Shown piece by piece: positions 3,399-12,343 of a DNA stretch of 12,343 nt. The notes below the pieces were generated by a model. The model was not told the DNA's origin. It made no database searches and worked only from the letters and a program-made list of their open reading frames with translations. The position numbers and the translations under genes were made by a program. Positions within the stretch are counted from its first letter, which is position 1. Every line of letters starts with the position of its first letter. The stretch is from a virus (lineage: Duplodnaviria > Heunggongvirae > Uroviricota > Caudoviricetes): the IMG/VR virus record IMGVR_UViG_2563366949_000005; one strand, 5' to 3'.

Positions 3399-6300
3399 AT
3401 GGGTAAAGGCAGCAGTAAGGGGCATACCCCGCGCGAAGCGAAGGACAACCTGAAGTCCACGCAGCTGCTGAGTGTGATCGATGCCATCAGTGAAGGGCCG
3501 ATTGAAGGTCCGGTGGATGGATTAAAAAGCGTGCTGCTGAACAGTACGCCGGTGCTGGACAGTGAGGGGAATACCAATATATCCGGCGTCACGGTGGTGT
3601 TCCGGGCAGGTGAGCAGGAGCAGACACCGCCGGAGGGGTTTGAATCCTCCGGCTCCGAGACGGTGCTGGGTACGGAAGTGAAATATGACACGCCGATCAC
3701 CCGGACCATCACGTCGGCAAACATCGACCGTCTGCGCTTTACCTTCGGTGTGCAGGCACTGGTGGAAACCACTTCAAAGGGGGACCGGAATCCGTCGGAA
3801 GTCCGCCTGCTGGTTCAGATACAGCGTAACGGTGGCTGGGTGACGGAAAAAGACATCACCATTAAGGGCAAAACCACCTCGCAGTATCTGGCCTCGGTGG
3901 TGGTGGATAACCTGCCTCCGCGCCCGTTCAATATCCGGATGCGCAGGATGACACCGGACAGCACTACAGACCAGCTGCAGAACAAAACGCTCTGGTCGTC
4001 ATACACCGAAATCATCGATGTGAAACAGTGCTACCCGAACACGGCACTGGTCGGCGTACAGGTGGACTCGGAGCAGTTCGGCAGCCAGCAGGTGAGCCGT
4101 AATTATCATCTTCGCGGGCGCATTCTGCAGGTTCCGTCGAACTATAACCCGCAGACGCGACAATACAGCGGTATCTGGGACGGAACGTTTAAGCCGGCAT
4201 ACAGCAACAACATGGCCTGGTGTCTGTGGGATATGCTGACCCACCCGCGCTACGGCATGGGGAAACGTCTTGATGCGGCGGATGTGGACAAATGGGCGCT
4301 GTATGTCATCGGCCAGAATTGCGACCAGTCGGTGCCGGACGGCTTTGGCGGCACGGAGCCGCGCATCACCTGTAACGCTTACCTGACCACACAACGTAAG
4401 GCGTGGGATGTGCTCAGTGATTTCTGCTCGGCGATGCGCTGTATGCCGGTATGGAACGGGCAGACGCTGACGTTCGTGCAGGACCGACCGTCGGATAAGG
4501 TGTGGACCTATAACCGCAGTAATGTGGTGATGCCGGATGATGGCGCGCCGTTCCGCTACAGCTTCAGCGCCCTGAAGGACCGCCATAATGCCGTTGAGGT
4601 GAACTGGATTGACCCGAATAACGGCTGGGAAACGGCAACAGAGCTTGTGGAGGACACGCAGGCCATTGCCCGTTACGGTCGTAACGTCACGAAGATGGAT
4701 GCCTTTGGCTGTACCAGCCGGGGGCAGGCACACCGCGCCGGGCTGTGGCTGATTAAAACGGAACTGCTGGAAACGCAGACCGTGGACTTCAGCGTGGGTG
4801 CAGAAGGGCTTCGCCATGTCCCGGGTGATGTCATTGAAATCTGTGATGATGACTATGCGGGCATCAGCATCGGCGGGCGCGTGCTGGCGGTGAACAGCCA
4901 GACGCGGACACTGACGCTCGACCGTGAAATCATGCTGCCATCCTCCGGTACCACGCTGATAAGCCTGGTTGACGGTCAGGGTAATCCGGTCAGCGTGGAG
5001 GTCCAGTCCGTCACCGACGGCGTGAAGGTGAAAGTGAGCCGTGTTCCTGACGGCGTTGCCGGATACAGCGTGTGGGGGCTGAAGTTGCCGACGTTGCGCC
5101 AGCGCCTGTTCCGCTGCGTGAGTATCCGTGAGAACGACGACGGCACGTATGCCATCACCGCCGTGCAGCATGTACCCGAAAAAGAAGCCATCGTGGATAA
5201 CGGGGCGCACTTTGACGGCGACCTGAGCAGCACGGTGAATGGCGTCACGCCGCCCGCGGTGCAGCACCTGACTGCCGAAGTCACCGCAGACAGCGGGGAA
5301 TATCAGGTGCTGGCGCGCTGGGACACGCCGAAGGTGGTGAAGGGGGGGAGCTTTATGCTTCGCCTGACCGTGGCAGCGGATGACGGCAGTGAGCGGCTGG
5401 TCAGCACGGCCAGGACGACGGAAACCACATACCGCTTCAGGCAACTGGCGCTGGGGAACTACAAGCTGACAGTCCGGGCGGTAAATGCGTGGGGGCAGCA
5501 GGGGGATCCGGCGTCAGTATCGTTCCGGATTGCCGCACCGGCAGCGCCATTGCGGATTGAGCTGACGCCGGGCTATTTTCAGATAACCGCCACGCCGCAT
5601 CTTGCCGTTTATGACCCGACGGTACAGTTTGAGTTCTGGTTCTCGGAAAAGCGGATTACCGATATCAGGCAGGTTGAAACCACAGCCCGCTATCTTGGTA
5701 CGGCGCTGTACTGGATAGCCGCCAGTATCAATATCAAACCGGGCCATGATTATTACTTTTATATCCGCAGTGTGAACACCGTTGGCAAATCGGCATTCGT
5801 GGAGGGCGTCGGTCGGGCGAGCGATGATGCGGAAGGTTACCTGGATTTTTTCAAAGGCAAGATAACCGAATCCCATCTCGGTAAAGAGCTGCTGGAAAAA
5901 GTTGATTTGACGGAGGATAACGCCAGCAGACTGGATGAGTTTTCGAAAGAGTGGAAGGACGCTAACGATAAATGGAATGCCATGTGGGGCGTCAAAATTG
6001 AGCAGACCAAAGACGGCAAACATTATGTCGCGGGTATTGGCCTCAGCATGGAGGACACGGAGGAAGGCAAGCTGAGCCAGTTTCTGGTTGCCGCTAACCG
6101 TATCGCGTTTATTGACCCGGCAAACGGGAATGAAACGCCGATGTTTGTGGCGCAGGGCAACCAGATATTCATGAACGACGTGTTCCTGAAGCGCCTGACA
6201 GCCCCCACCATTACCAGCGGTGGCAGTCCTCCGGTATTTTCCCTGACATCAGACGGAAAGCTGACCGCTAAAAATGCGGATATCAGTGGTAGTGTGAATG

Positions 6301-6812
6301 CGAACTCCGGGACGCTCAATAATGTCACGGTAAATGAAAACTGTACGATTAAGGGCATGCTGGAGGCGAACCAGGTCAGAGGTGACTTCGTTAAAACTGT
6401 ATCCAAATCATTCCCGAAAAAGGCTGGTACGTGGGGTAACACGGAAACACCAAACGGGACGGTTACAGTCACCATTTACGATGATCATAACTTTGACCGC
6501 CAAATCATTATTCCGCCCATTATTTTTAACGGTGTGGCGTATGACGATCCGGGGAGCGGTAATAACCCGGGAGGTACGCGATACACGGGTTATGGTTTTG
6601 AAGTTCGCAAAAATGGCGTATTAATCGCATCCAGAGAAACTAAAGGAGCCATTCCCGGTAGTTACAGTGCGGTTATTGATATGCCGAGTGGTGGTGGTAA
6701 CGTCACTCTGGAGTTTAAGATTTTCCAGAAAGGCAATCAGGGCGCAGGTAACATCACAGACTGTACGGTGATTGTGACCAAAAAAGCTGCTTCCGGTATC
6801 AGTATCCGTTGA
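3399..6812 (+). CDS. J: Host specificity / tip attachment protein J (central tail fibre), 1137 aa
   Basis: Very long ORF with a GAGGAA Shine-Dalgarno 5-6 nt upstream of ATG 3399. Size is close to lambda gpJ (about 1132 aa) and it follows I in canonical order. The large antisense ORF 3999..5444 is a GC-content artefact. Confidence 0.95.
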
Positions 6813-6832
6813 AATATTTATAACCCCAATAC

Positions 6833-6860: not shown

Positions 6861-6872
6861 TGTGGAGTGAGT

Positions 6873-9245
6873 ATGGCAGTACAGATTTCAGGTGTGCTGA
6901 AAGACGGCACAGGAAAACCGGTACAGAACTGCACAATCCAGCTGAAAGCAAAACGTAACAGTACCACGGTACTGGTGAACACGGTGGCCTCTGAAAATCC
7001 GGATGAAGCCGGGCGTTACAGCATGGATGTTGAGTATGGCCAGTACAGCGTTATCCTGCTTGTTGAAGGTTTTCCGCCTTCACATGCCGGAACCATTACC
7101 GTCTATGAAGGTTCCAGACCAGGTACGCTGAATGATTTTCTCGGTGCCATGACGGAAGATGATGTCATGCCGGAGGCATTGCGTCGTTTTGAGGAAATGG
7201 TGGAAGAAGCGGCACGCAACGCTGAAGCCGCCTCTCAGAGCGCAGCGGCGGCAAAGAAATCCGAAACTGCAGCGGCATCATCGAAGAACGCGGCGAAAAC
7301 CTCAGAAACGAATGCAGCTAACAGCGCACAGGCGGCAGCGGCCTCGCAGACTGCATCGGCAAACTCCGCAACAGCAGCTAAAAAATCAGAAACCAACGCG
7401 AAAAATAGCGAGACAGCCGCAAAGACGAGCGAAACCAACGCAAAGTCCAGCCAGACGGCAGCGAAGACCAGCGAAACGAATGCTAAAGCCAGTGAAACTG
7501 CAGCAAAAAACAGCCAGGTTGCAGCAGCCCAAAGCGAGAGCGCGGCAGCCGGTTCTGCGACTTCAGCAGCTGGATCAGCAACTGCTGCGGCTAACAGCCA
7601 GAAAGCTGCGAAGACGAGTGAAACTAACGCAAAGTCCAGCCAGACGGCAGCGAAGACCAGCGAAACGAATGCCAAAGCCAGTGAAACTGCGGCGAAAAGC
7701 AGTCAGGATGCAGCGGCCCAAAGCGAGAGTGCCGCAGCCAGTTCTGCAAGCGCGGCGGCTGCTTCTGCTACTGCATCAGCTAACAGTCAAAAAGCAGCAA
7801 AAACCAGTGAAACCAACGCAAAGGTGAGCGAAACAGCGGCTGCGAACTCAGCGAAAGCATCGGCAGCAAGCCAGACGGCAGCTAAAGCAAGCGAAGATGC
7901 AGCCAGAGAGTACGCAAGCCAGGCTGCGGAGCCGTATAAATATGTCTTACAGCCGCTGCCTGATGTGTGGATACCATTTAACGATTCGCTGGATATGATT
8001 ACGGGCTTTTCGCCATCATATAAAAAAATTGTTATTGGTGACGATGAAATAACGATGCCTGGCGACAAGATTGTTAAGTTTAAACGTGCATCGAAAGCAA
8101 CCTATATTAACAAATCTGGTGTGCTGACAGAGGCTGCCATTGACGAGCCACGATTTGAACGTGATGGCCTGCTTATTGAGGGGCAAAGAACAAACTACAT
8201 GCTCAATTCGGAAAGCCCTGCCAGTTGGGGGCGATCGTCAAATATGGATGTGCCCGAAACAGGGACGGATAATTTTGGTTTTACCTATGGAAAGTTTGTC
8301 TGCAACGATTCTCTGATTGGGCAAACCTCAGCCATTAATATGGCATCAATTGCTGCAACAAAGTCAGTTGATGTCTCAGGCGATAATAAACACGTGACAA
8401 CCTCATGTCGTTTTAAAACAGAACTGCAGGTAAGGTTGCGTATCCGGTTTGATAAATATGACGGTAGCGCAACAACTTTTCTTGGTGATGCGTATATTGA
8501 TACACAAACGCTTGAAATTAATATGACAGGCGGTGCTGCCTCAAGAATTACAGCGAGAGTCAGAAAGGACGAAGCTACCGGATGGATTTTTGCAGAGGCA
8601 ACAATTCAGGCAATTGATGGGGAGTTAAAAATAGGCTCTCAGATACAGTATTCTCCTAAGCAGAGCGGGGCAACCGTATCTGGTGACTATATTTATCTGG
8701 CCACCCCACAAGTAGAAGATGGGCCTTGTGTATCATCTTTTATTATATCAGGAGCGACGGCGGCGACCCGCGCAAGCGATATAGTTACAGTTCCAATTAA
8801 GAATAATCTTTATAATCTTCCTTTTACGGTTCTTTGTGAGGTACATAAGAACTGGTATAAAACGCCAAATGCAGCGCCACGTGTTTTTGATACCGGCGGT
8901 CATCAAACCGGAGCGGCTATTATTCTTGGCTTCGGTCGTTCAACAGATTACGACGGATTTCCTTATTGCGATATTGGAGGAGCTAACAGACGGGTAAACG
9001 AAAACGCATCGCTTGAAAAAATGGTTATGGGGATGCGTGTAAAGTCAGAGCAGTCTACGTGCTCAGTAAGTAACGGGCATATATCCAGCGAAACAAAAAC
9101 CACATGGTCCTGTATTCAGAACACCGCAATTATCCGTATTGGAGGCCAGACTACAGCCGGGTTACGTCATTTATTTGGTCATGTCAGGAATTTCAGAATA
9201 TGGCACAAGGCATTGACTGATGCTCAGGTGGGGGAGTCAATCTAA
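6873..9245 (+). CDS. stf: Side tail fibre protein (Stf-like): conserved N-terminal anchor, Ala/Ser/Thr-rich repeat shaft, divergent AT-rich C-terminal domain
   Basis: N-terminus MAVQISGVLKDGTGKPVQNCTIQLKA...GFPPSHAGTITVYEGS matches the conserved N-terminal domain of lambdoid Stf proteins as I recall it. The ORF track starts at GTG 6867, but ATG 6873 with GGAG 5 nt upstream is the more likely start. The central part has 63-aa tandem repeats (AAKTSETNAKSSQTAAK...). The C-terminal part, about 440 aa, is encoded by visibly AT-richer DNA. Confidence 0.85.
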   Translation: MAVQISGVLKDGTGKPVQNCTIQLKAKRNSTTVLVNTVASENPDEAGRYSMDVEYGQYSVILLVEGFPPSHAGTITVYEGSRPGTLNDFLGAMTEDDVMPEALRRFEEMVEEAARNAEAASQSAAAAKKSETAAASSKNAAKTSETNAANSAQAAAASQTASANSATAAKKSETNAKNSETAAKTSETNAKSSQTAAKTSETNAKASETAAKNSQVAAAQSESAAAGSATSAAGSATAAANSQKAAKTSETNAKSSQTAAKTSETNAKASETAAKSSQDAAAQSESAAASSASAAAASATASANSQKAAKTSETNAKVSETAAANSAKASAASQTAAKASEDAAREYASQAAEPYKYVLQPLPDVWIPFNDSLDMITGFSPSYKKIVIGDDEITMPGDKIVKFKRASKATYINKSGVLTEAAIDEPRFERDGLLIEGQRTNYMLNSESPASWGRSSNMDVPETGTDNFGFTYGKFVCNDSLIGQTSAINMASIAATKSVDVSGDNKHVTTSCRFKTELQVRLRIRFDKYDGSATTFLGDAYIDTQTLEINMTGGAASRITARVRKDEATGWIFAEATIQAIDGELKIGSQIQYSPKQSGATVSGDYIYLATPQVEDGPCVSSFIISGATAATRASDIVTVPIKNNLYNLPFTVLCEVHKNWYKTPNAAPRVFDTGGHQTGAAIILGFGRSTDYDGFPYCDIGGANRRVNENASLEKMVMGMRVKSEQSTCSVSNGHISSETKTTWSCIQNTAIIRIGGQTTAGLRHLFGHVRNFRIWHKALTDAQVGESI
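7422..7800 (+). repeat. Tandem direct repeat of about 189 bp (two near-identical copies, partial third) inside stf
   Basis: Copy 1 begins aagacgagcgaaaccaacgcaaagtccagccagacggcagcgaagaccagcgaaacgaatgc at about 7422. Copy 2 begins aagacgagtgaaactaacgcaaagtccagccagacggcagcgaagaccagcgaaacgaatgc at about 7611. The period is 189 bp (63 codons) and the protein repeats are TNAKSSQTAAKTSETNAKASETAAK. Confidence 0.75.
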
Positions 9246-9526
9246 TGAAAGATTTAACACTCAAATTTGCCGACAGGGCCGACTTTTCGGCCTTTATGGA
9301 GAGTATTGGCTATTATGATGACGAGTCGATGCAGGATGATATTCTTATTGACGTGATAGGTAACGCGTACAAAGAAACCGGAGAACTGACTGAAGATGGC
9401 GAACCGGTATGTGTTAAGGAAGACGGATATTTTGTAAACGTGCGCATCATTAATGATTCGCAAATATCGTCATTATTCGATGAATACGTGGTTGCTGTTG
9501 AGCATCAACTTCGTGGCTGGATGTGA
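9245..9526 (+). CDS. Hypothetical small acidic protein (93 aa), translationally coupled to stf
   Basis: ATG at 9245 overlaps the stf stop (TAATG). The protein is strongly acidic (many D/E, few K/R). It shares low GC with the stf 3' half and the downstream gene. It does not resemble lambda Tfa as far as I can judge. Confidence 0.6.
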   Translation: MKDLTLKFADRADFSAFMESIGYYDDESMQDDILIDVIGNAYKETGELTEDGEPVCVKEDGYFVNVRIINDSQISSLFDEYVVAVEHQLRGWM

Positions 9527-9535
9527 GGAAGAAAA

Positions 9536-10576
9536 ATGGCTACATCGACAGTAATTCCTGATGACATCAAAACGCTAAAATCCGACGTTAGCAAATTAAA
9601 AAACGATCAAGGAAGCTACGCAACAAAATTATATGTTGACAGCAAAGATGAAATCGTTGGTGACTGGTCTGCTTCATGGTATCAGCAGGTATTGCCAACT
9701 AGCGGAGCTATATTTGGGAGAAAACTCCGCTCAACTCACAGGACGGCAGGTGTTGAGGATGCGTATTGCGAGCTATACCTCAAAAAATGGATAGACAGCC
9801 CAGGTAACGCAATGGCGCGCCTTAACCTGAACGATAACGGGACAAACATTTGCTGGGACTTTACCAACCTTTATGGCGGTACGATGATTTTTCCCGGTGA
9901 CAGCGGATACCTCAAAATGGGTAACTGCCTTATGTCATACAGCAAGCGTGGAAGTAACGCGCTTATTAAATTTGATTACACCGACACATTACAGATCAAA
10001 TATGCCAATCATGGGTCAACCATGACATTAAACACACAGGGAACCGCTTATGCTGGTGTTACTGCTCAATTGTGGGGCAACTCCAGCCGTCCTGTTGTTT
10101 ATGAAGTCGGTGTTGATGGTGGCGCTTATATGTTCTATGCGCAGAAAAATACCGATAACACCTATATGTTAAGCGTTAATGGTGCATGTCATGCCACCGC
10201 ATTTAACCAGCATTCCGACCGGGATCTGAAAGACAACATTCAGGTGATCGATAATGCAACCGACCGCATCCGTAAAATGAACGGCTACACATACACGCTT
10301 AAAGAAAACGGTATGCCCTATGCTGGTGTCATTGCACAGGAAGCTCTGGAAGCAATCCCAGAAGTTGTAGGTTCCGCAATGAAATATCAGGACGGTGCGA
10401 GCGGATCGGAAGGTGAAGAAGGTGAACGTTATTACACAGTAGATTATTCTGGTGTTACTGGCTTGCTTGTTCAGGTAGCCAGAGAGTCAGACGACAGAAT
10501 AACAGCACTGGAAGAAGAAAACGCAGAATTAAGACAAAGATTATCTGCAATTGATGCGGCGCTTGCGTCTAAATAA
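9536..10576 (+). CDS. Tail fibre / receptor-binding tip protein with C-terminal peptidase-S74 intramolecular chaperone (autoproteolytic) domain, 346 aa
   Basis: GAGGAAG Shine-Dalgarno 5 nt upstream of ATG 9536, 9 nt after the orf93 stop. The C-terminal ~120 aa carry the S74/endosialidase-chaperone signature: HSDRDLKDNI ... GYTYTLKENG ... YAGVIAQEALEAIPEVV ... YTVDYSGVTGLLVQVARE, then a heptad-like tail (ITALEEENAELRQRLSAIDAALASK). A terminator-like hairpin follows the stop. Confidence 0.75.
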   Translation: MATSTVIPDDIKTLKSDVSKLKNDQGSYATKLYVDSKDEIVGDWSASWYQQVLPTSGAIFGRKLRSTHRTAGVEDAYCELYLKKWIDSPGNAMARLNLNDNGTNICWDFTNLYGGTMIFPGDSGYLKMGNCLMSYSKRGSNALIKFDYTDTLQIKYANHGSTMTLNTQGTAYAGVTAQLWGNSSRPVVYEVGVDGGAYMFYAQKNTDNTYMLSVNGACHATAFNQHSDRDLKDNIQVIDNATDRIRKMNGYTYTLKENGMPYAGVIAQEALEAIPEVVGSAMKYQDGASGSEGEEGERYYTVDYSGVTGLLVQVARESDDRITALEEENAELRQRLSAIDAALASK

Positions 10577-10582
10577 TATTAA

Positions 10583-10605
10583 GGGGCCGAGCGCCCCGTT
10601 TTATT
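10583..10605 (+). terminator. Putative rho-independent terminator after the 346-aa fibre gene
   Basis: A GC-rich 5-bp stem GGGGC / GCCCC with loop CGAGC is followed by GTTTTATT, 7 nt after the stop at 10576. Confidence 0.5.
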
Positions 10606-10618
10606 GGGTAGGATGAAA

Positions 10619-10912
10619 ATGGATATAACACCTTTCCTTCATGCGCTTTGTGCTGTGGCTGCGCAGCTACTGATTGGTCTTTTTACCGGGAACTGGGCTT
10701 ACGGGGCGATAGCCGGTTGTACGTTCTTCATTGCGCGTGAACACACCCAGGCAGAATATCGCTGGATCGAAATGTTCGGGCATGGCAAGCGAATGAATAT
10801 GCCGTGGTGGGGCGGTTTTGATACACGTGCATGGGATGTGGCAAGCCTGATGGATTTTGCTGTGCCGGTGGTGGCGTGTCTGCTGGTCTGGCTGTTGGTT
10901 AATCGTGGGTGA
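10619..10912 (+). CDS. Small predicted integral membrane protein (about 97 aa, 2-3 hydrophobic segments), function unknown
   Basis: The ORF track begins at TTG 10604. In-frame ATGs at 10613 and 10619 are more plausible, with AGGA at 10610-10613. Hydrophobic stretches are FLHALCAVAAQLLIGLF, AYGAIAGCTFFIA and FAVPVVACLLVWLLV. The exact start is uncertain. Confidence 0.55.
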   Translation: MDITPFLHALCAVAAQLLIGLFTGNWAYGAIAGCTFFIAREHTQAEYRWIEMFGHGKRMNMPWWGGFDTRAWDVASLMDFAVPVVACLLVWLLVNRG

Positions 10913-11139
10913 AAAAAGGTGAGCTGTATATGCAACGGAGGAAGAAAACTCGTTGATGGAAGCCTGGAAGAAGTATCGGGTGTTGCTGAACCGTGTTGAT
11001 ACATCAACTGCACAGGATATTGAATGGCCAGCACTGCCGTAGGGTAAAACATATAAATTCTATAATTAGATGTATCTTTCCATTTACGGCAAGGAAGGGG
11101 GCTTGGAAGACGTAAAGCATCTCACACCAAGATTATTTT

Positions 11140-11730
11140 TTATATGTCAGGTGTCTGAAGTTTTGCTTTGGCTCTTAAAATGGTTTGCCGCGAGGTTTTG
11201 AATTCCCGGGCAATGGCACTTATACTTACACCTGACTTAATTCGTTCGAATACCACCTGTTTCTGTTCTTCATTTAACACAGGTGGTCGACCAAAACGTT
11301 TCCCTGCGCCCCGGGCTCTTACTATCCCGGAATGAGTGCGTTCAAGTAAAAGGTCTCGTTCAAATTCAGCGACTGCTGAAATTACTTGCATCATCATTTT
11401 TCCTGTTGGACTGGTCAGGTCAATGCCCCCCAATGCTAAGCAATGCACTCTGATACCTGTTTCGGTCAGTTGTTCCACTGTTTTCCTGATATCCATTGCA
11501 TTACAACCAAGGCGATCCAGTTTTGTCACAATCAATTGATCACCACATTTCAGGCGAGCAAGCAACCGGTTAAAACCAGGACGCTCACTGGTTGCTGCTG
11601 AGCCGCTAATGTGTTCTTCGATTATTTGCTGAGGTTTGATTTTAAAACCTGCACTTTCGATTTCCCGGCGTTGATTTTCGGTGGTCTGATCCAGCGTTGA
11701 TATCCGACAGTAAGCAAAAATTCGAGACAT
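11140..11730 (-). CDS. Small serine recombinase (resolvase/invertase family), 196 aa
   Basis: The N-terminus [15 protein letters not shown] contains the catalytic Ser/Arg motif of serine recombinases. A KLDRLGC motif and a C-terminal helix-turn-helix ([21 protein letters not shown]) are present. The start is an ATG (complement of CAT at 11728-11730) and the stop is TAA at 11140-11142. Confidence 0.9.
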
Positions 11731-12109
11731 AGTGAGACTCTATACGAAATTGGTGTACATATCATAATGCATATCCAAAAATTATTTCGTTTATTATTGT
11801 ACATATTTGTATGTATACGTTCGAAAATAAACGAATTCGGATGCAGTCCCGTAATTTTGGTGTAACCAAAAATCGATTTTTTGAAAAATGGCTTTAACTC
11901 GGTTTGTTTTTCGAACTCCGGGCGGACTCGAGGAAGACGAATAATAGTGTTGTATGTTATTTCAACCAGATTTTAAGTTGTTTGGTCGTGGAAAAGTGGA
12001 GCAAAATGTTGTTAAAGTGGAAAAATGGTAAAAAAAGTAGGTTGTTGCGGAATAACGTAGTTGTTGATATTTTTTTAATGCATTGAAAAATTATTTTTCA
12101 GGGGGGGCA
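11731..12109 (-). promoter_or_regulatory. AT-rich non-coding region upstream of the recombinase: probable promoter/operator region, possibly including a recombination site
   Basis: About 380 bp without a credible ORF. The 9-mer TGTACATAT occurs twice (11755-11763 and 11799-11807). An inverted repeat TACATA-N3-TATGTA lies at 11801-11815. A direct repeat AAAGTGGA is at 11993 and 12014, 21 bp apart. A palindrome TGAAAAA-TTA-TTTTTCA lies at 12084-12100. Confidence 0.4.
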
Positions 12110-12343
12110 TTACACTTTACCATTTAAATTTTGGTTGTCTTTAAGAACTGATATCGCTGTTTGTAATAATTCTTTGTTATCCAGCCATGACTTTTTCTTT
12201 ATGTTTCCTTCAATGTAATCAAGCAATGTTCTGGTATTGATAGGTCTTCCCTGTTTTGCTACTTCCACGACAGCATCTCCCAGGATAATTCTGACTTCAG
12301 GAAGCTGCGCAGGGAACCACTTTAGGGTGTCTTTTGATTTCAT
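12110..12343 (-). CDS. Hypothetical small protein (at least 77 aa); its ATG coincides with the window edge, so the true 5' end may lie outside
   Basis: Open minus-strand frame from 12343 to the TAA at 12110-12112, in AT-rich DNA. No recognisable motif. Its extent cannot be decided from this window. Confidence 0.45.
   Translation of the reverse strand: MKSKDTLKWFPAQLPEVRIILGDAVVEVAKQGRPINTRTLLDYIEGNIKKKSWLDNKELLQTAISVLKDNQNLNGKV

What the first reader, a model, noticed from the sequence alone, without database searches (positions are those of the whole stretch)
10583..10912. Stand-alone small membrane protein gene in a moron-like position after the fibre genes
The gene follows its own upstream terminator, and its end is convergent with the recombinase gene. 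The region between late tail-fibre genes and the recombination module is where lambdoid phages carry lysogenic-conversion or superinfection-exclusion genes (lom, bor, cor-type). A 2-3 TM protein here is a candidate for such a function. I cannot assign a family from sequence alone.
Basis: inference. Interest (0 to 1): 0.45.

Follow-up and report, generated by a model that had tools for sequence, protein, structure and literature searches.

The report
Small membrane gene after tail fibres
This is a real, very common but uncharacterised 97-residue membrane-protein gene that rides behind phage receptor-binding genes; in this phage it has no promoter of its own and sits behind a terminator, so it looks like a late-lytic gene, not a lysogen-expressed conversion gene.

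Summary
Window 10619-10912 (+) encodes a 97-aa, three-helix membrane protein. A GC hairpin with a U-tract (10583-10605) lies upstream, and a Pin-type serine recombinase gene (11140-11730, -) converges on it. The gene is under purifying selection (dN/dS 0.12-0.22). It belongs to PHROG 1443, function unknown, and occurs in 38% of complete E. coli genomes. Its central loop is almost invariant (REHTQAEYRWI...MPWWGGFD). It matches no Pfam, NCBIfam, PADLOC or PDB family and no informative fold.

In phages it lies directly after receptor-binding genes of unrelated types: lambda-type Stf, S74 fibre, P22-type tailspike, P2-type fibre/Tfa, J, and a DGR target. It often overlaps the upstream gene. Chromosomal copies also exist, some abutting ligA.

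The moron reading is only partly supported. Just 13 nt separate the U-tract from the ATG, so there is no room for a promoter, and there is no downstream terminator. Published RNA-seq covers the Tritos prophage of LF82, which has an identical intergenic region and differs by 1 aa. There the gene is silent in five conditions, even when the fibre genes upstream are strongly induced. Paralogues without the hairpin (Perceval) or with a promoter-like site of their own (Gally) are transcribed.

Most likely it is the last gene of the Q-antiterminated late operon, acting at the inner membrane. Its function remains unknown.

The parts
9245..9526 (+). 93-aa acidic protein gene (PHROG 1361/18574). It overlaps the stf stop and often travels between the fibre gene and the membrane-protein gene.
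   Evidence: Homologues sit directly upstream of the membrane-protein gene in phage 21, Perceval, PhiR41_1, E. ruysiae, Comamonas and Pantoea.
9536..10576 (+). Second tail-fibre gene (346 aa) with a C-terminal Peptidase_S74 intramolecular chaperone domain.
   Evidence: Pfam PF13884 E=4.8e-14 and PHROG 4563 E=2.5e-220.
10583..10605 (+). Intrinsic-terminator-like element: 5-bp all-GC stem, 5-nt loop, then GUUUUAUU.
   Evidence: It is conserved in the hairpin class of junctions. In LF82 Tritos, read density in macrophages falls about 20-fold across it.
10610..10613 (+). Shine-Dalgarno-like AGGA, 5 nt before the ATG. This is also where the gene's homology block begins in other phages.
   Evidence: Sequence. 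BLAST block starts at 10610 in phage 21, PhiR41_1 and E. ruysiae.
10619..10912 (+). Gene for a 97-aa three-helix integral membrane protein (PHROG 1443; WP_000355602-like).
10932..11042 (+). 3' remnant of a tail-fibre assembly gene (tfa) pseudogene. Homology to Stf-Tfa-Pin phages resumes here.
   Evidence: RefSeq pseudogene annotation. The window from 10931 onward is 99.4% identical to phage 2H10 starting inside its tfa.
11140..11730 (-). PinQ/PinR-type serine recombinase gene, convergent with the membrane-protein gene. No invertible segment was detected.
   Evidence: Pfam Resolvase E=2.5e-36 and HTH_7; PHROG 125. Only short, chance-level inverted repeats.

Best explanation
Window 10619-10912 is a genuine gene for a 97-residue protein with three hydrophobic helices. 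I call it T here. T belongs to a widespread, uncharacterised family, PHROG 1443.

What it is. T is a compact, mobile cassette. In phages it attaches to the 3' end of receptor-binding-protein genes of many unrelated kinds.

How it is expressed in this phage. The phage is a PhiR63_1/Tritos-type lambdoid, and T is the last gene on the late strand.
- T has no promoter of its own.
- T lies 13 nt behind an intrinsic terminator that closes the S74 fibre gene.
- RNA polymerase that has not been antiterminated therefore stops before T. T would be made only when Q-modified polymerase reads through the whole late operon, that is, late in lytic growth.
- So in this genome T is not a lysogen-expressed conversion gene, even though it occupies a moron-like slot.

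What is shown and what is inferred.
- Shown: gene reality, family membership, gene contexts, and silence in lysogens. The last rests on a near-identical prophage used as proxy.
- Inferred from established lambda Q biology: read-through expression in the late phase.
- Predicted: inner-membrane location, with the Arg/Trp-rich, near-invariant loop (residues 39-73) on the cytoplasmic face in the E. coli members.
- Guessed, about 25% likely: that the loop binds a conserved envelope component and blocks secondary DNA entry or otherwise protects the infected cell or its progeny.
For: Gene and family:
- PHROG 1443 matches at E=3e-58. There are 453 homologues and 423 clusters at 50% identity, all about 90-115 aa.
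- Invariant residues include D2, H8, Q16, the run R40 to I50, R58, the M61 to D68 block (all but W63 invariant), W72 and D79.
- dN/dS is 0.12-0.22.
- AF2 gives pLDDT 93 and three helices.
- The gene is in 2068 of 5426 complete E. coli genomes, with a median of 2 copies.

Linkage to receptor-binding genes:
- After Stf and a 92/93-aa gene in phage 21, Perceval and PhiR41_1.
- After the S74 fibre here and in Tritos.
- Overlapping a P22-type tailspike by 4 nt in JEP4.
- Overlapping a P2-type fibre in an Aeromonas prophage and tfa in phiHAP-1.
- After J in Comamonas.
- Between the variable repeat of a DGR target gene and avd in Comamonas nitrativorans.
- Tail families dominate the upstream neighbours.

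Regulation:
- No promoter-like site lies near the gene, and the only terminator-like site is the upstream hairpin.
- The phage carries Q and a complete S/R/Rz lysis cassette elsewhere.
- Tritos is identical over the 66-nt intergenic stretch.
- In LF82 RNA-seq, TRITO_22 has 1-17 raw reads in every sample and log2FC 0.21 in macrophages (q=0.22). The fibre gene and the 93-aa gene just upstream rise by log2FC 6.2 and 7.9.
- TRITO_22 is not in the moron table.
- Perceval's copy has no hairpin, a 12-nt gap and an AGGAGG site. It is co-induced with its upstream gene, log2FC 3.0.
Against: - No late-phase transcriptome was examined, so read-through by Q-modified polymerase is inferred, not seen.
- The hairpin is short (5 bp) and does not stand out statistically. 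The drop in reads could partly reflect RNA stability.
- Family members elsewhere behave like autonomous units. In Gally a 9-bp terminator and a promoter-like site precede the gene, and its transcript exceeds that of the tailspike.
- The family also occurs in lytic jumbo phages away from tail genes. It occurs in chromosomes beside ligA, pnp and other housekeeping genes. Linkage to receptor-binding genes is therefore not universal.
- Nothing identifies the biochemical function.
- The positive-inside rule gives conflicting topologies for members with basic C-terminal tails.
Confidence: 0.5

Rival explanations
1. Classical moron. The gene is expressed from the prophage. It gives the lysogen superinfection exclusion or another conversion phenotype by acting in the inner membrane.
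For: - The gene sits in slots that hold conversion or exclusion genes in other phages. These are between tailspike and int, beside OafA in 611R6, and between tfa and the sheath gene in phiHAP-1.
- Its base composition differs from its neighbours.
- Gally's copy has a terminator-promoter-gene layout. It reaches log2(fpkm+5) of 8-8.7 in macrophages while the structural genes stay silent.
- Perceval's copy is induced about 8-fold in macrophages without J.
Against: - This allele has no promoter and no room for one.
- The Tritos orthologue is silent in all five conditions and is not among the LF82 morons. Perceval's and Gally's copies are also below the authors' 5-fold threshold in LB.
- There is no PADLOC hit.
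- The sequence is highly conserved whatever the receptor-binding protein, unlike receptor-matched exclusion proteins.
- Homologues exist in lytic jumbo phages and in bacterial chromosomes.
Confidence: 0.2
2. Lysis-related membrane protein: a holin-, antiholin- or channel-like oligomer that alters membrane permeability or lysis timing late in infection.
For: - Three hydrophobic helices in about 100 aa.
- GxxxG motifs at G20-G24 and G29-G33, and conserved polar residues on the helix faces (H8, Q16, S76, D79).
- Inferred late expression.
- An ATG-AAA-ATG double start in this allele.
Against: - The phage already has holin S, lysozyme R and Rz in the usual place.
- No holin family matches in Pfam or PHROGs, and fold hits to holins have E>3.
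- The most conserved part is the hydrophilic loop, not the helices.
- This allele has no charged C-terminal tail.
- The double start is absent from the other junction classes.
- Up to 8 copies per genome, and chromosomal copies, are tolerated.
Confidence: 0.1
3. Tail-fibre-linked function: the protein assists assembly, maturation or use of the receptor-binding protein encoded just upstream.
For: - The gene lies immediately downstream of receptor-binding genes or their chaperones in sipho-, podo- and myovirus prophages and in a DGR cassette.
- It often overlaps the upstream gene by 1-4 nt.
- It occupies the slot where tfa would be, and a tfa remnant lies next to it.
Against: - The upstream receptor-binding proteins are structurally unrelated, yet T is about 60% identical across genera.
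- An integral membrane protein is an unlikely fibre chaperone.
- S74 fibres carry their own chaperone domain.
- Copies exist far from any tail gene.
Confidence: 0.08
4. A general bacterial small membrane protein that phages have captured. It has a housekeeping or stress role, for example as a modulator of a conserved membrane complex. It persists at the edges of receptor-binding modules mainly because those are recombination hot spots.
For: - Single chromosomal copies occur in Leclercia, Aeromonas, Sphingomonas-type and other Proteobacteria, between housekeeping genes. Some overlap or abut ligA.
- The gene serves as a recombination joint. The 611R6 allele is an intragenic hybrid, and homology blocks begin at the gene's edge.
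Against: - Strong purifying selection inside phage contexts.
- Very high prevalence in prophages.
- No conserved chromosomal operon partner that would suggest a pathway.
Confidence: 0.12

Closest known systems
PHROG 1443 (phage protein family of unknown function); phage 21 CPT_21_24 'putative membrane protein'
   Same: Full-length match at E=3e-58. 94.8% identical to the phage 21 protein, which also lies after the side tail fibre and a 92-aa gene.
   Different: Nothing differs; this is the family it belongs to. No member has a tested function.
HK97 gp15 superinfection-exclusion moron (Cumby et al. 2012, from my own knowledge)
   Same: A small inner-membrane protein encoded among the tail genes of a lambdoid phage, and a plausible way to act at the DNA-entry step.
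   Different: As I recall, gp15 is an autonomous unit with its own promoter and terminator and is expressed from the prophage. T here has neither, and its orthologue is silent in lysogens. The PHROG and PADLOC scans show no link to any annotated exclusion family. A direct sequence comparison was not run.
Receptor-linked exclusion proteins next to receptor-binding genes: Cor (phi80/N15/T1) and T5 Llp (from my own knowledge)
   Same: Small envelope proteins encoded beside the receptor-binding gene and inherited together with it.
   Different: Those are outer-membrane lipoproteins matched to one receptor, FhuA. T has no lipobox, is predicted to sit in the inner membrane, and keeps the same sequence behind six unrelated types of receptor-binding gene.
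P2 Z/fun and the conversion genes of P22-like phages (gtrABC, oac) as occupants of the same slots (from my own knowledge)
   Same: The same genomic slots: between tfa and the sheath gene in phiHAP-1, and between tailspike and int in JEP4, Gally and 611R6.
   Different: No homology was found to any annotated family. T is often translationally coupled to the late gene upstream rather than separately transcribed.
Class I holins such as lambda S105
   Same: About 100 aa, three hydrophobic helices, probably late expression, and an MKM start in this allele.
   Different: T is not in the lysis cassette, which is complete elsewhere. No holin family matches. T has a long invariant hydrophilic loop and no charged C-terminal tail.

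Membership tests
PHROG 1443 | Significant full-length match to the family profile | tested here: met
   E=3e-58, residues 3-98 against profile positions 1-96 of 97.
Moron (independent transcription unit added to a phage genome; definition in PMC3594210) | A discrete insertion, present or absent between otherwise related genomes | tested here: met
   The homology block begins at about 10610 in other phages. 2H10-type phages lack it and resume at 10931. GC is 53% against 42-45% for the neighbours.
Moron (independent transcription unit added to a phage genome; definition in PMC3594210) | Its own promoter | tested here: not met
   No sigma-70-like site lies between 10256 and 10618. Only 13 nt separate the U-tract from the ATG. 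This is a consensus scan only.
Moron (independent transcription unit added to a phage genome; definition in PMC3594210) | Its own downstream terminator | tested here: not met
   No terminator-like site lies between 10912 and 11140 on either strand.
Moron (independent transcription unit added to a phage genome; definition in PMC3594210) | Transcribed in the lysogen independently of the lytic programme | tested here: not met
   Published RNA-seq of the Tritos orthologue (identical upstream region) shows 1-17 reads per sample. The gene is not in the moron list. This is a proxy strain under five conditions only.
Inner-membrane superinfection-exclusion proteins (HK97 gp15, P22 SieA, T4 Imm) | Sequence or profile similarity to a characterised member or a defence model | tested here: not met
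   No PADLOC hit. PHROG 1443 carries no annotation. No Pfam or NCBIfam match.
Inner-membrane superinfection-exclusion proteins (HK97 gp15, P22 SieA, T4 Imm) | Integral inner-membrane location | tested here: inconclusive
   Three predicted hydrophobic helices and a basic central loop. This is a prediction only.
Inner-membrane superinfection-exclusion proteins (HK97 gp15, P22 SieA, T4 Imm) | Blocks infection by other phages when expressed | not testable with these tools
   Requires plating and DNA-injection assays.
Class I holin | Encoded in the lysis cassette beside an endolysin | tested here: not met
   Holin S, lysozyme R and Rz lie about 26 kb upstream in PhiR63_1.
Class I holin | Three transmembrane domains with a charged cytoplasmic C-terminal tail, and a match to a holin family | tested here: not met
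   Three helices are present, but the C-terminus is only NRG, and no holin family matches.
Tail-fibre assembly protein (Tfa) | Homology to Tfa or Caudo_TAP families | tested here: not met
   T has no such match. The only tfa sequence nearby is the separate remnant at 10932-11042.

The most novel reading that the evidence does not exclude
PHROG 1443 could be a new class of small inner-membrane effector linked to receptor-binding genes. Its invariant juxtamembrane loop would engage a universally conserved envelope component. It would act as a receptor-independent block to genome entry, or as a membrane switch, and would be passed between sipho-, podo- and myoviruses together with host-range modules. 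In some genomes a terminator would gate its expression so that only antiterminated late transcription reaches it.
Probability: 0.25. Interest if true: 0.65.

Novelty: new member of a known kind. Interest (0 to 1): 0.4.

Why it matters
The gene is one of the commonest unannotated prophage genes in E. coli. It is in 38% of complete genomes, with up to 8 copies. It is conserved from Escherichia to Comamonas, Aeromonas and alphaproteobacteria, and it sits beside the genes that set host range. Learning its function would annotate thousands of 'hypothetical proteins'. It could also reveal a conserved membrane step that phages exploit or protect.

The terminator-without-promoter layout shows that one cassette can be wired in different ways in different phages: late-only here, co-transcribed with fibre genes in Perceval, and apparently autonomous in Gally. 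That is a caution against reading 'moron' from position alone.

Tried and rejected
- Invertible segment driven by the Pin recombinase: only short, chance-level inverted repeats, so rejected.
- Antisense ORF 10699-11052: no family match and it conflicts with conservation on the + strand, so rejected.
- Chromosomal neighbours as a clue to function: they vary (ligA, pnp, AMP nucleosidase, pirin, an ABC transporter, lipid A acyltransferases), and no conserved partner was found.
- Tai tail-assembly-interference systems were considered and rejected. They lie upstream of the packaging module and the paper does not describe them as membrane proteins.
- The SNIPE paper and two literature searches by phage name added nothing about this gene.
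- The IMG/VR scan returned only near-identical E. coli loci. It was useful for junction classes but not for diversity.

Full report
WHAT THE WINDOW IS. The window is the tail end of the late region of a lambdoid E. coli phage. Bases 9200-12343 are 100% identical to Escherichia phage PhiR63_1 and 98% identical to the LF82 prophage Tritos. The gene order is as follows:
- J, 3399-6812.
- A side tail fibre, Stf, 6867-9245 (phage_tail_N domain).
- A 93-aa acidic protein, 9245-9526 (PHROG 1361).
- A second fibre, 9536-10576, with a Peptidase_S74 chaperone domain.
- The small gene in question.
- A Pin-type serine recombinase on the opposite strand, 11140-11730.

The complete phage map shows antiterminator Q and a full holin/lysozyme/Rz cassette far upstream. 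The small gene is therefore the last gene on the late strand.

CHECK OF THE OBSERVATION. The gene is real.
- The ORF listing gives 10604-10912 (TTG start). Homologue alignment and three independent annotations start it at ATG 10619, giving 97 aa, with AGGA 5 nt upstream.
- It matches PHROG 1443 over its full length at E=3e-58. It has 453 homologues in the 90%-clustered database and 423 clusters at 50% identity, nearly all about 90-115 aa.
- dN/dS against E. coli paralogues is 0.12-0.22. Among alleles sharing this junction there are 31 synonymous and 11 non-synonymous codon variants and no stop codons.
- AlphaFold2 predicts three helices (4-23, 26-53, 74-96) at mean pLDDT 93. Hydropathy supports two strong hydrophobic segments and one weaker one.
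- The hairpin GGGGC-CGAGC-GCCCC (10583-10597) followed by GUUUUAUU begins 7 nt after the fibre gene's stop. Its free energy is about -9 to -10 kcal/mol.
- As a bare pattern the hairpin is not beyond chance. It is conserved in all 35 IMG/VR loci with this junction, and one variant keeps a G.U pair.
- The gene does converge with the recombinase gene. That gene is a PinQ/PinR-type invertase homologue, not a Red-type recombination module, and I found no invertible segment.
- A 111-nt 3' remnant of tfa lies between the two genes.

THE FAMILY. The central part is almost invariant from Escherichia to Aeromonas, Comamonas and Leclercia: R40-E-H-T-Q-A-E-Y-R-W-I50, G56, R58, M61-P-W-W-G-G-F-D68, W72 and D79, plus D2, H8 and Q16 in helix 1. 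More distant members replace H42 (REQT, REIT), so that histidine is not essential.
- Nothing matches in Pfam, NCBIfam, PADLOC or PDB sequences.
- By the positive-inside rule the central loop carries 5.4 K+R on average, against less than 0.5 elsewhere. That puts it in the cytoplasm for most members, though members with basic C-terminal tails are ambiguous.
- The gene is in 2068 of 5426 complete E. coli genomes, with a median of two copies and up to eight. It is always annotated 'hypothetical'.

WHERE IT LIVES. In phages it sits immediately after the receptor-binding gene or that gene's chaperone, whatever the type:
- Stf plus a 92/93-aa gene in phage 21, Perceval, the phage-plasmid PhiR41_1 and E. 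ruysiae.
- The S74 fibre here and in Tritos.
- A P22-type tailspike, overlapped by 4 nt, in JEP4. In 611R6 it follows tailspike, an OafA O-acetylase and an S74 remnant.
- A P2-type fibre, overlapped by 4 nt, in an Aeromonas prophage, and tfa in phiHAP-1, just before the sheath gene.
- J in Comamonas.
- Inside a diversity-generating retroelement in Comamonas nitrativorans. There it lies between the variable repeat of the target gene and avd plus the template repeat. 11 of 13 mismatches fall on template adenines.

Tail families dominate the upstream neighbours in species-level genomes. The link is not universal, however.
- A lytic Aeromonas jumbo phage has a copy after a helicase/terminase gene.
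- Leclercia, Aeromonas and several alpha- and betaproteobacterial genomes have single chromosomal copies among housekeeping genes. Two of these overlap or abut ligA.

A MOBILE CASSETTE. Homology to other phages starts at about 10610, right at the ribosome-binding site. In phage 21 and E. ruysiae it runs past the stop codon into the tfa remnant. Homology to Stf-Tfa-Pin phages such as 2H10 resumes at 10931. GC content is 53%, against 42-45% for the fibre cassette and the pin gene. The 611R6 allele is a hybrid of two subtypes, so the gene also acts as a recombination joint.

Three upstream junctions occur among the 80 E. coli IMG/VR loci fetched:
- The hairpin class, as here: 35 loci.
- A 234-aa fibre variant with a strong AGGAGG site and a 10-nt gap: 39 loci.
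- The 92-aa gene with AGGAGG and a 12-nt gap: 6 loci.

REGULATION, THE CRUX. A moron is an independent transcription unit (PMC3594210). Here only 13 nt lie between the U-tract and the ATG, no promoter-like site is nearby, and no terminator follows the gene. The hairpin therefore does not make the gene autonomous. It isolates the gene from any transcription that has not been antiterminated.

Published RNA-seq of E. coli LF82 (PMC9928086) tests this. Tritos has the same 66-nt intergenic sequence, and its protein differs at one residue.
- TRITO_22 has 1-17 raw reads in each of ten samples. These cover LB, two further in-vitro bacterial conditions (B1, B6) and macrophages at two times.
- Its log2FC in macrophages is 0.21 (q=0.22), and it is not in the authors' moron list.
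- In the same macrophage samples the 93-aa gene and the S74 fibre gene just upstream rise by log2FC 7.9 and 6.2. Read density therefore falls about 20-fold across the hairpin.
- Perceval's copy has no hairpin. It is co-induced with its upstream gene, log2FC 3.0.
- Gally's copy is preceded by a 9-bp terminator and then a promoter-like site. It is transcribed above the tailspike gene, log2FC 4.9.

So the family shows three wirings. The one in this window is the silent-in-lysogen kind.

From the known behaviour of lambda-type Q, whose modified polymerase reads through terminators, I infer that the gene is expressed only late in lytic growth. No induced transcriptome was available to confirm this.

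FUNCTION. None can be assigned.
- Strong conservation regardless of the adjacent receptor-binding protein argues against a receptor-matched blocker such as Cor or Llp.
- The complete lysis cassette elsewhere, the missing C-terminal tail and the invariant hydrophilic loop argue against a holin. The GxxxG motifs and the polar helix faces leave room for oligomerisation.
- A chaperone role is unlikely for an integral membrane protein placed behind unrelated fibres.
- My best guess, at about 25%, is an accessory inner-membrane protein whose loop binds a conserved envelope component. It would act in infected cells, for example against secondary genome entry.

VERDICT. The gene is an ordinary member of a known but uncharacterised phage family. 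It is notable for its prevalence, its invariant motif and its persistent linkage to host-range genes. Interest is moderate.

Noticed in passing
window 9245-10576 (the 93-aa gene and the S74 fibre gene): In LF82 RNA-seq the Tritos equivalents of these two genes are induced in macrophages by log2FC 7.9 and 6.2, while J is not. This implies an internal promoter in the AT-rich 3' part of stf (GC 42-45%), possibly through relief of silencing.
   Followed up: partly
window 10932-11042: A 3' remnant of a tail-fibre assembly gene. It marks where a fibre cassette replaced the end of stf and most of tfa. The same remnant follows the small gene in phage 21 and E. ruysiae.
   Followed up: yes
window 11140-11730: A PinQ/PinR-type serine recombinase with no flanking inverted repeats. 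It appears to be an orphan invertase with no segment to invert.
   Followed up: partly
L114 5810-6815 (Comamonas nitrativorans): A family member sits inside a diversity-generating retroelement. The order is variable repeat 5810-5928, the small gene 6001-6300, avd 6305-6691, and template repeat 6697-6815. 11 of 13 mismatches are at template adenines.
   Followed up: yes
L132 3881-6225; L131 72-1176; L098 and L099: Chromosomal family members overlap or abut the 3' end of the NAD-dependent DNA ligase gene in two metagenome-assembled genomes, and lie downstream of ligA in Leclercia. The link is unexplained.
   Followed up: partly
L146 2789-3288 (phage Gally): Here the same gene follows a 9-bp terminator and a promoter-like site, and it is transcribed above the tailspike gene. 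So it looks like an autonomous unit in this phage, unlike in the window.
   Followed up: partly
window 10613-10621: ATG-AAA-ATG gives a Met-Lys-Met start like the dual start of lambda holin S. It occurs only in the hairpin class of junctions, so it is probably chance.
   Followed up: partly
L144 3001-3288 (phage vB_EcoP-611R6): This allele is an intragenic recombinant. Its N-terminal part resembles the window's gene and its C-terminal part resembles the P22-like subtype. It is preceded by a 114-bp remnant of the S74 fibre gene that still carries the hairpin.
   Followed up: yes
window 3399-6812: J is one continuous 1137-aa ORF in the window. The PhiR63_1 record annotates it as two overlapping CDS, which suggests a frameshift or an annotation artefact in that record.
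   Followed up: no
window 7159-8068, both strands: Long ORFs inside and antisense to stf overlie its Ala/Ser/Thr/Lys-rich repeat region. They are most likely artefacts of the repetitive composition.
   Followed up: no
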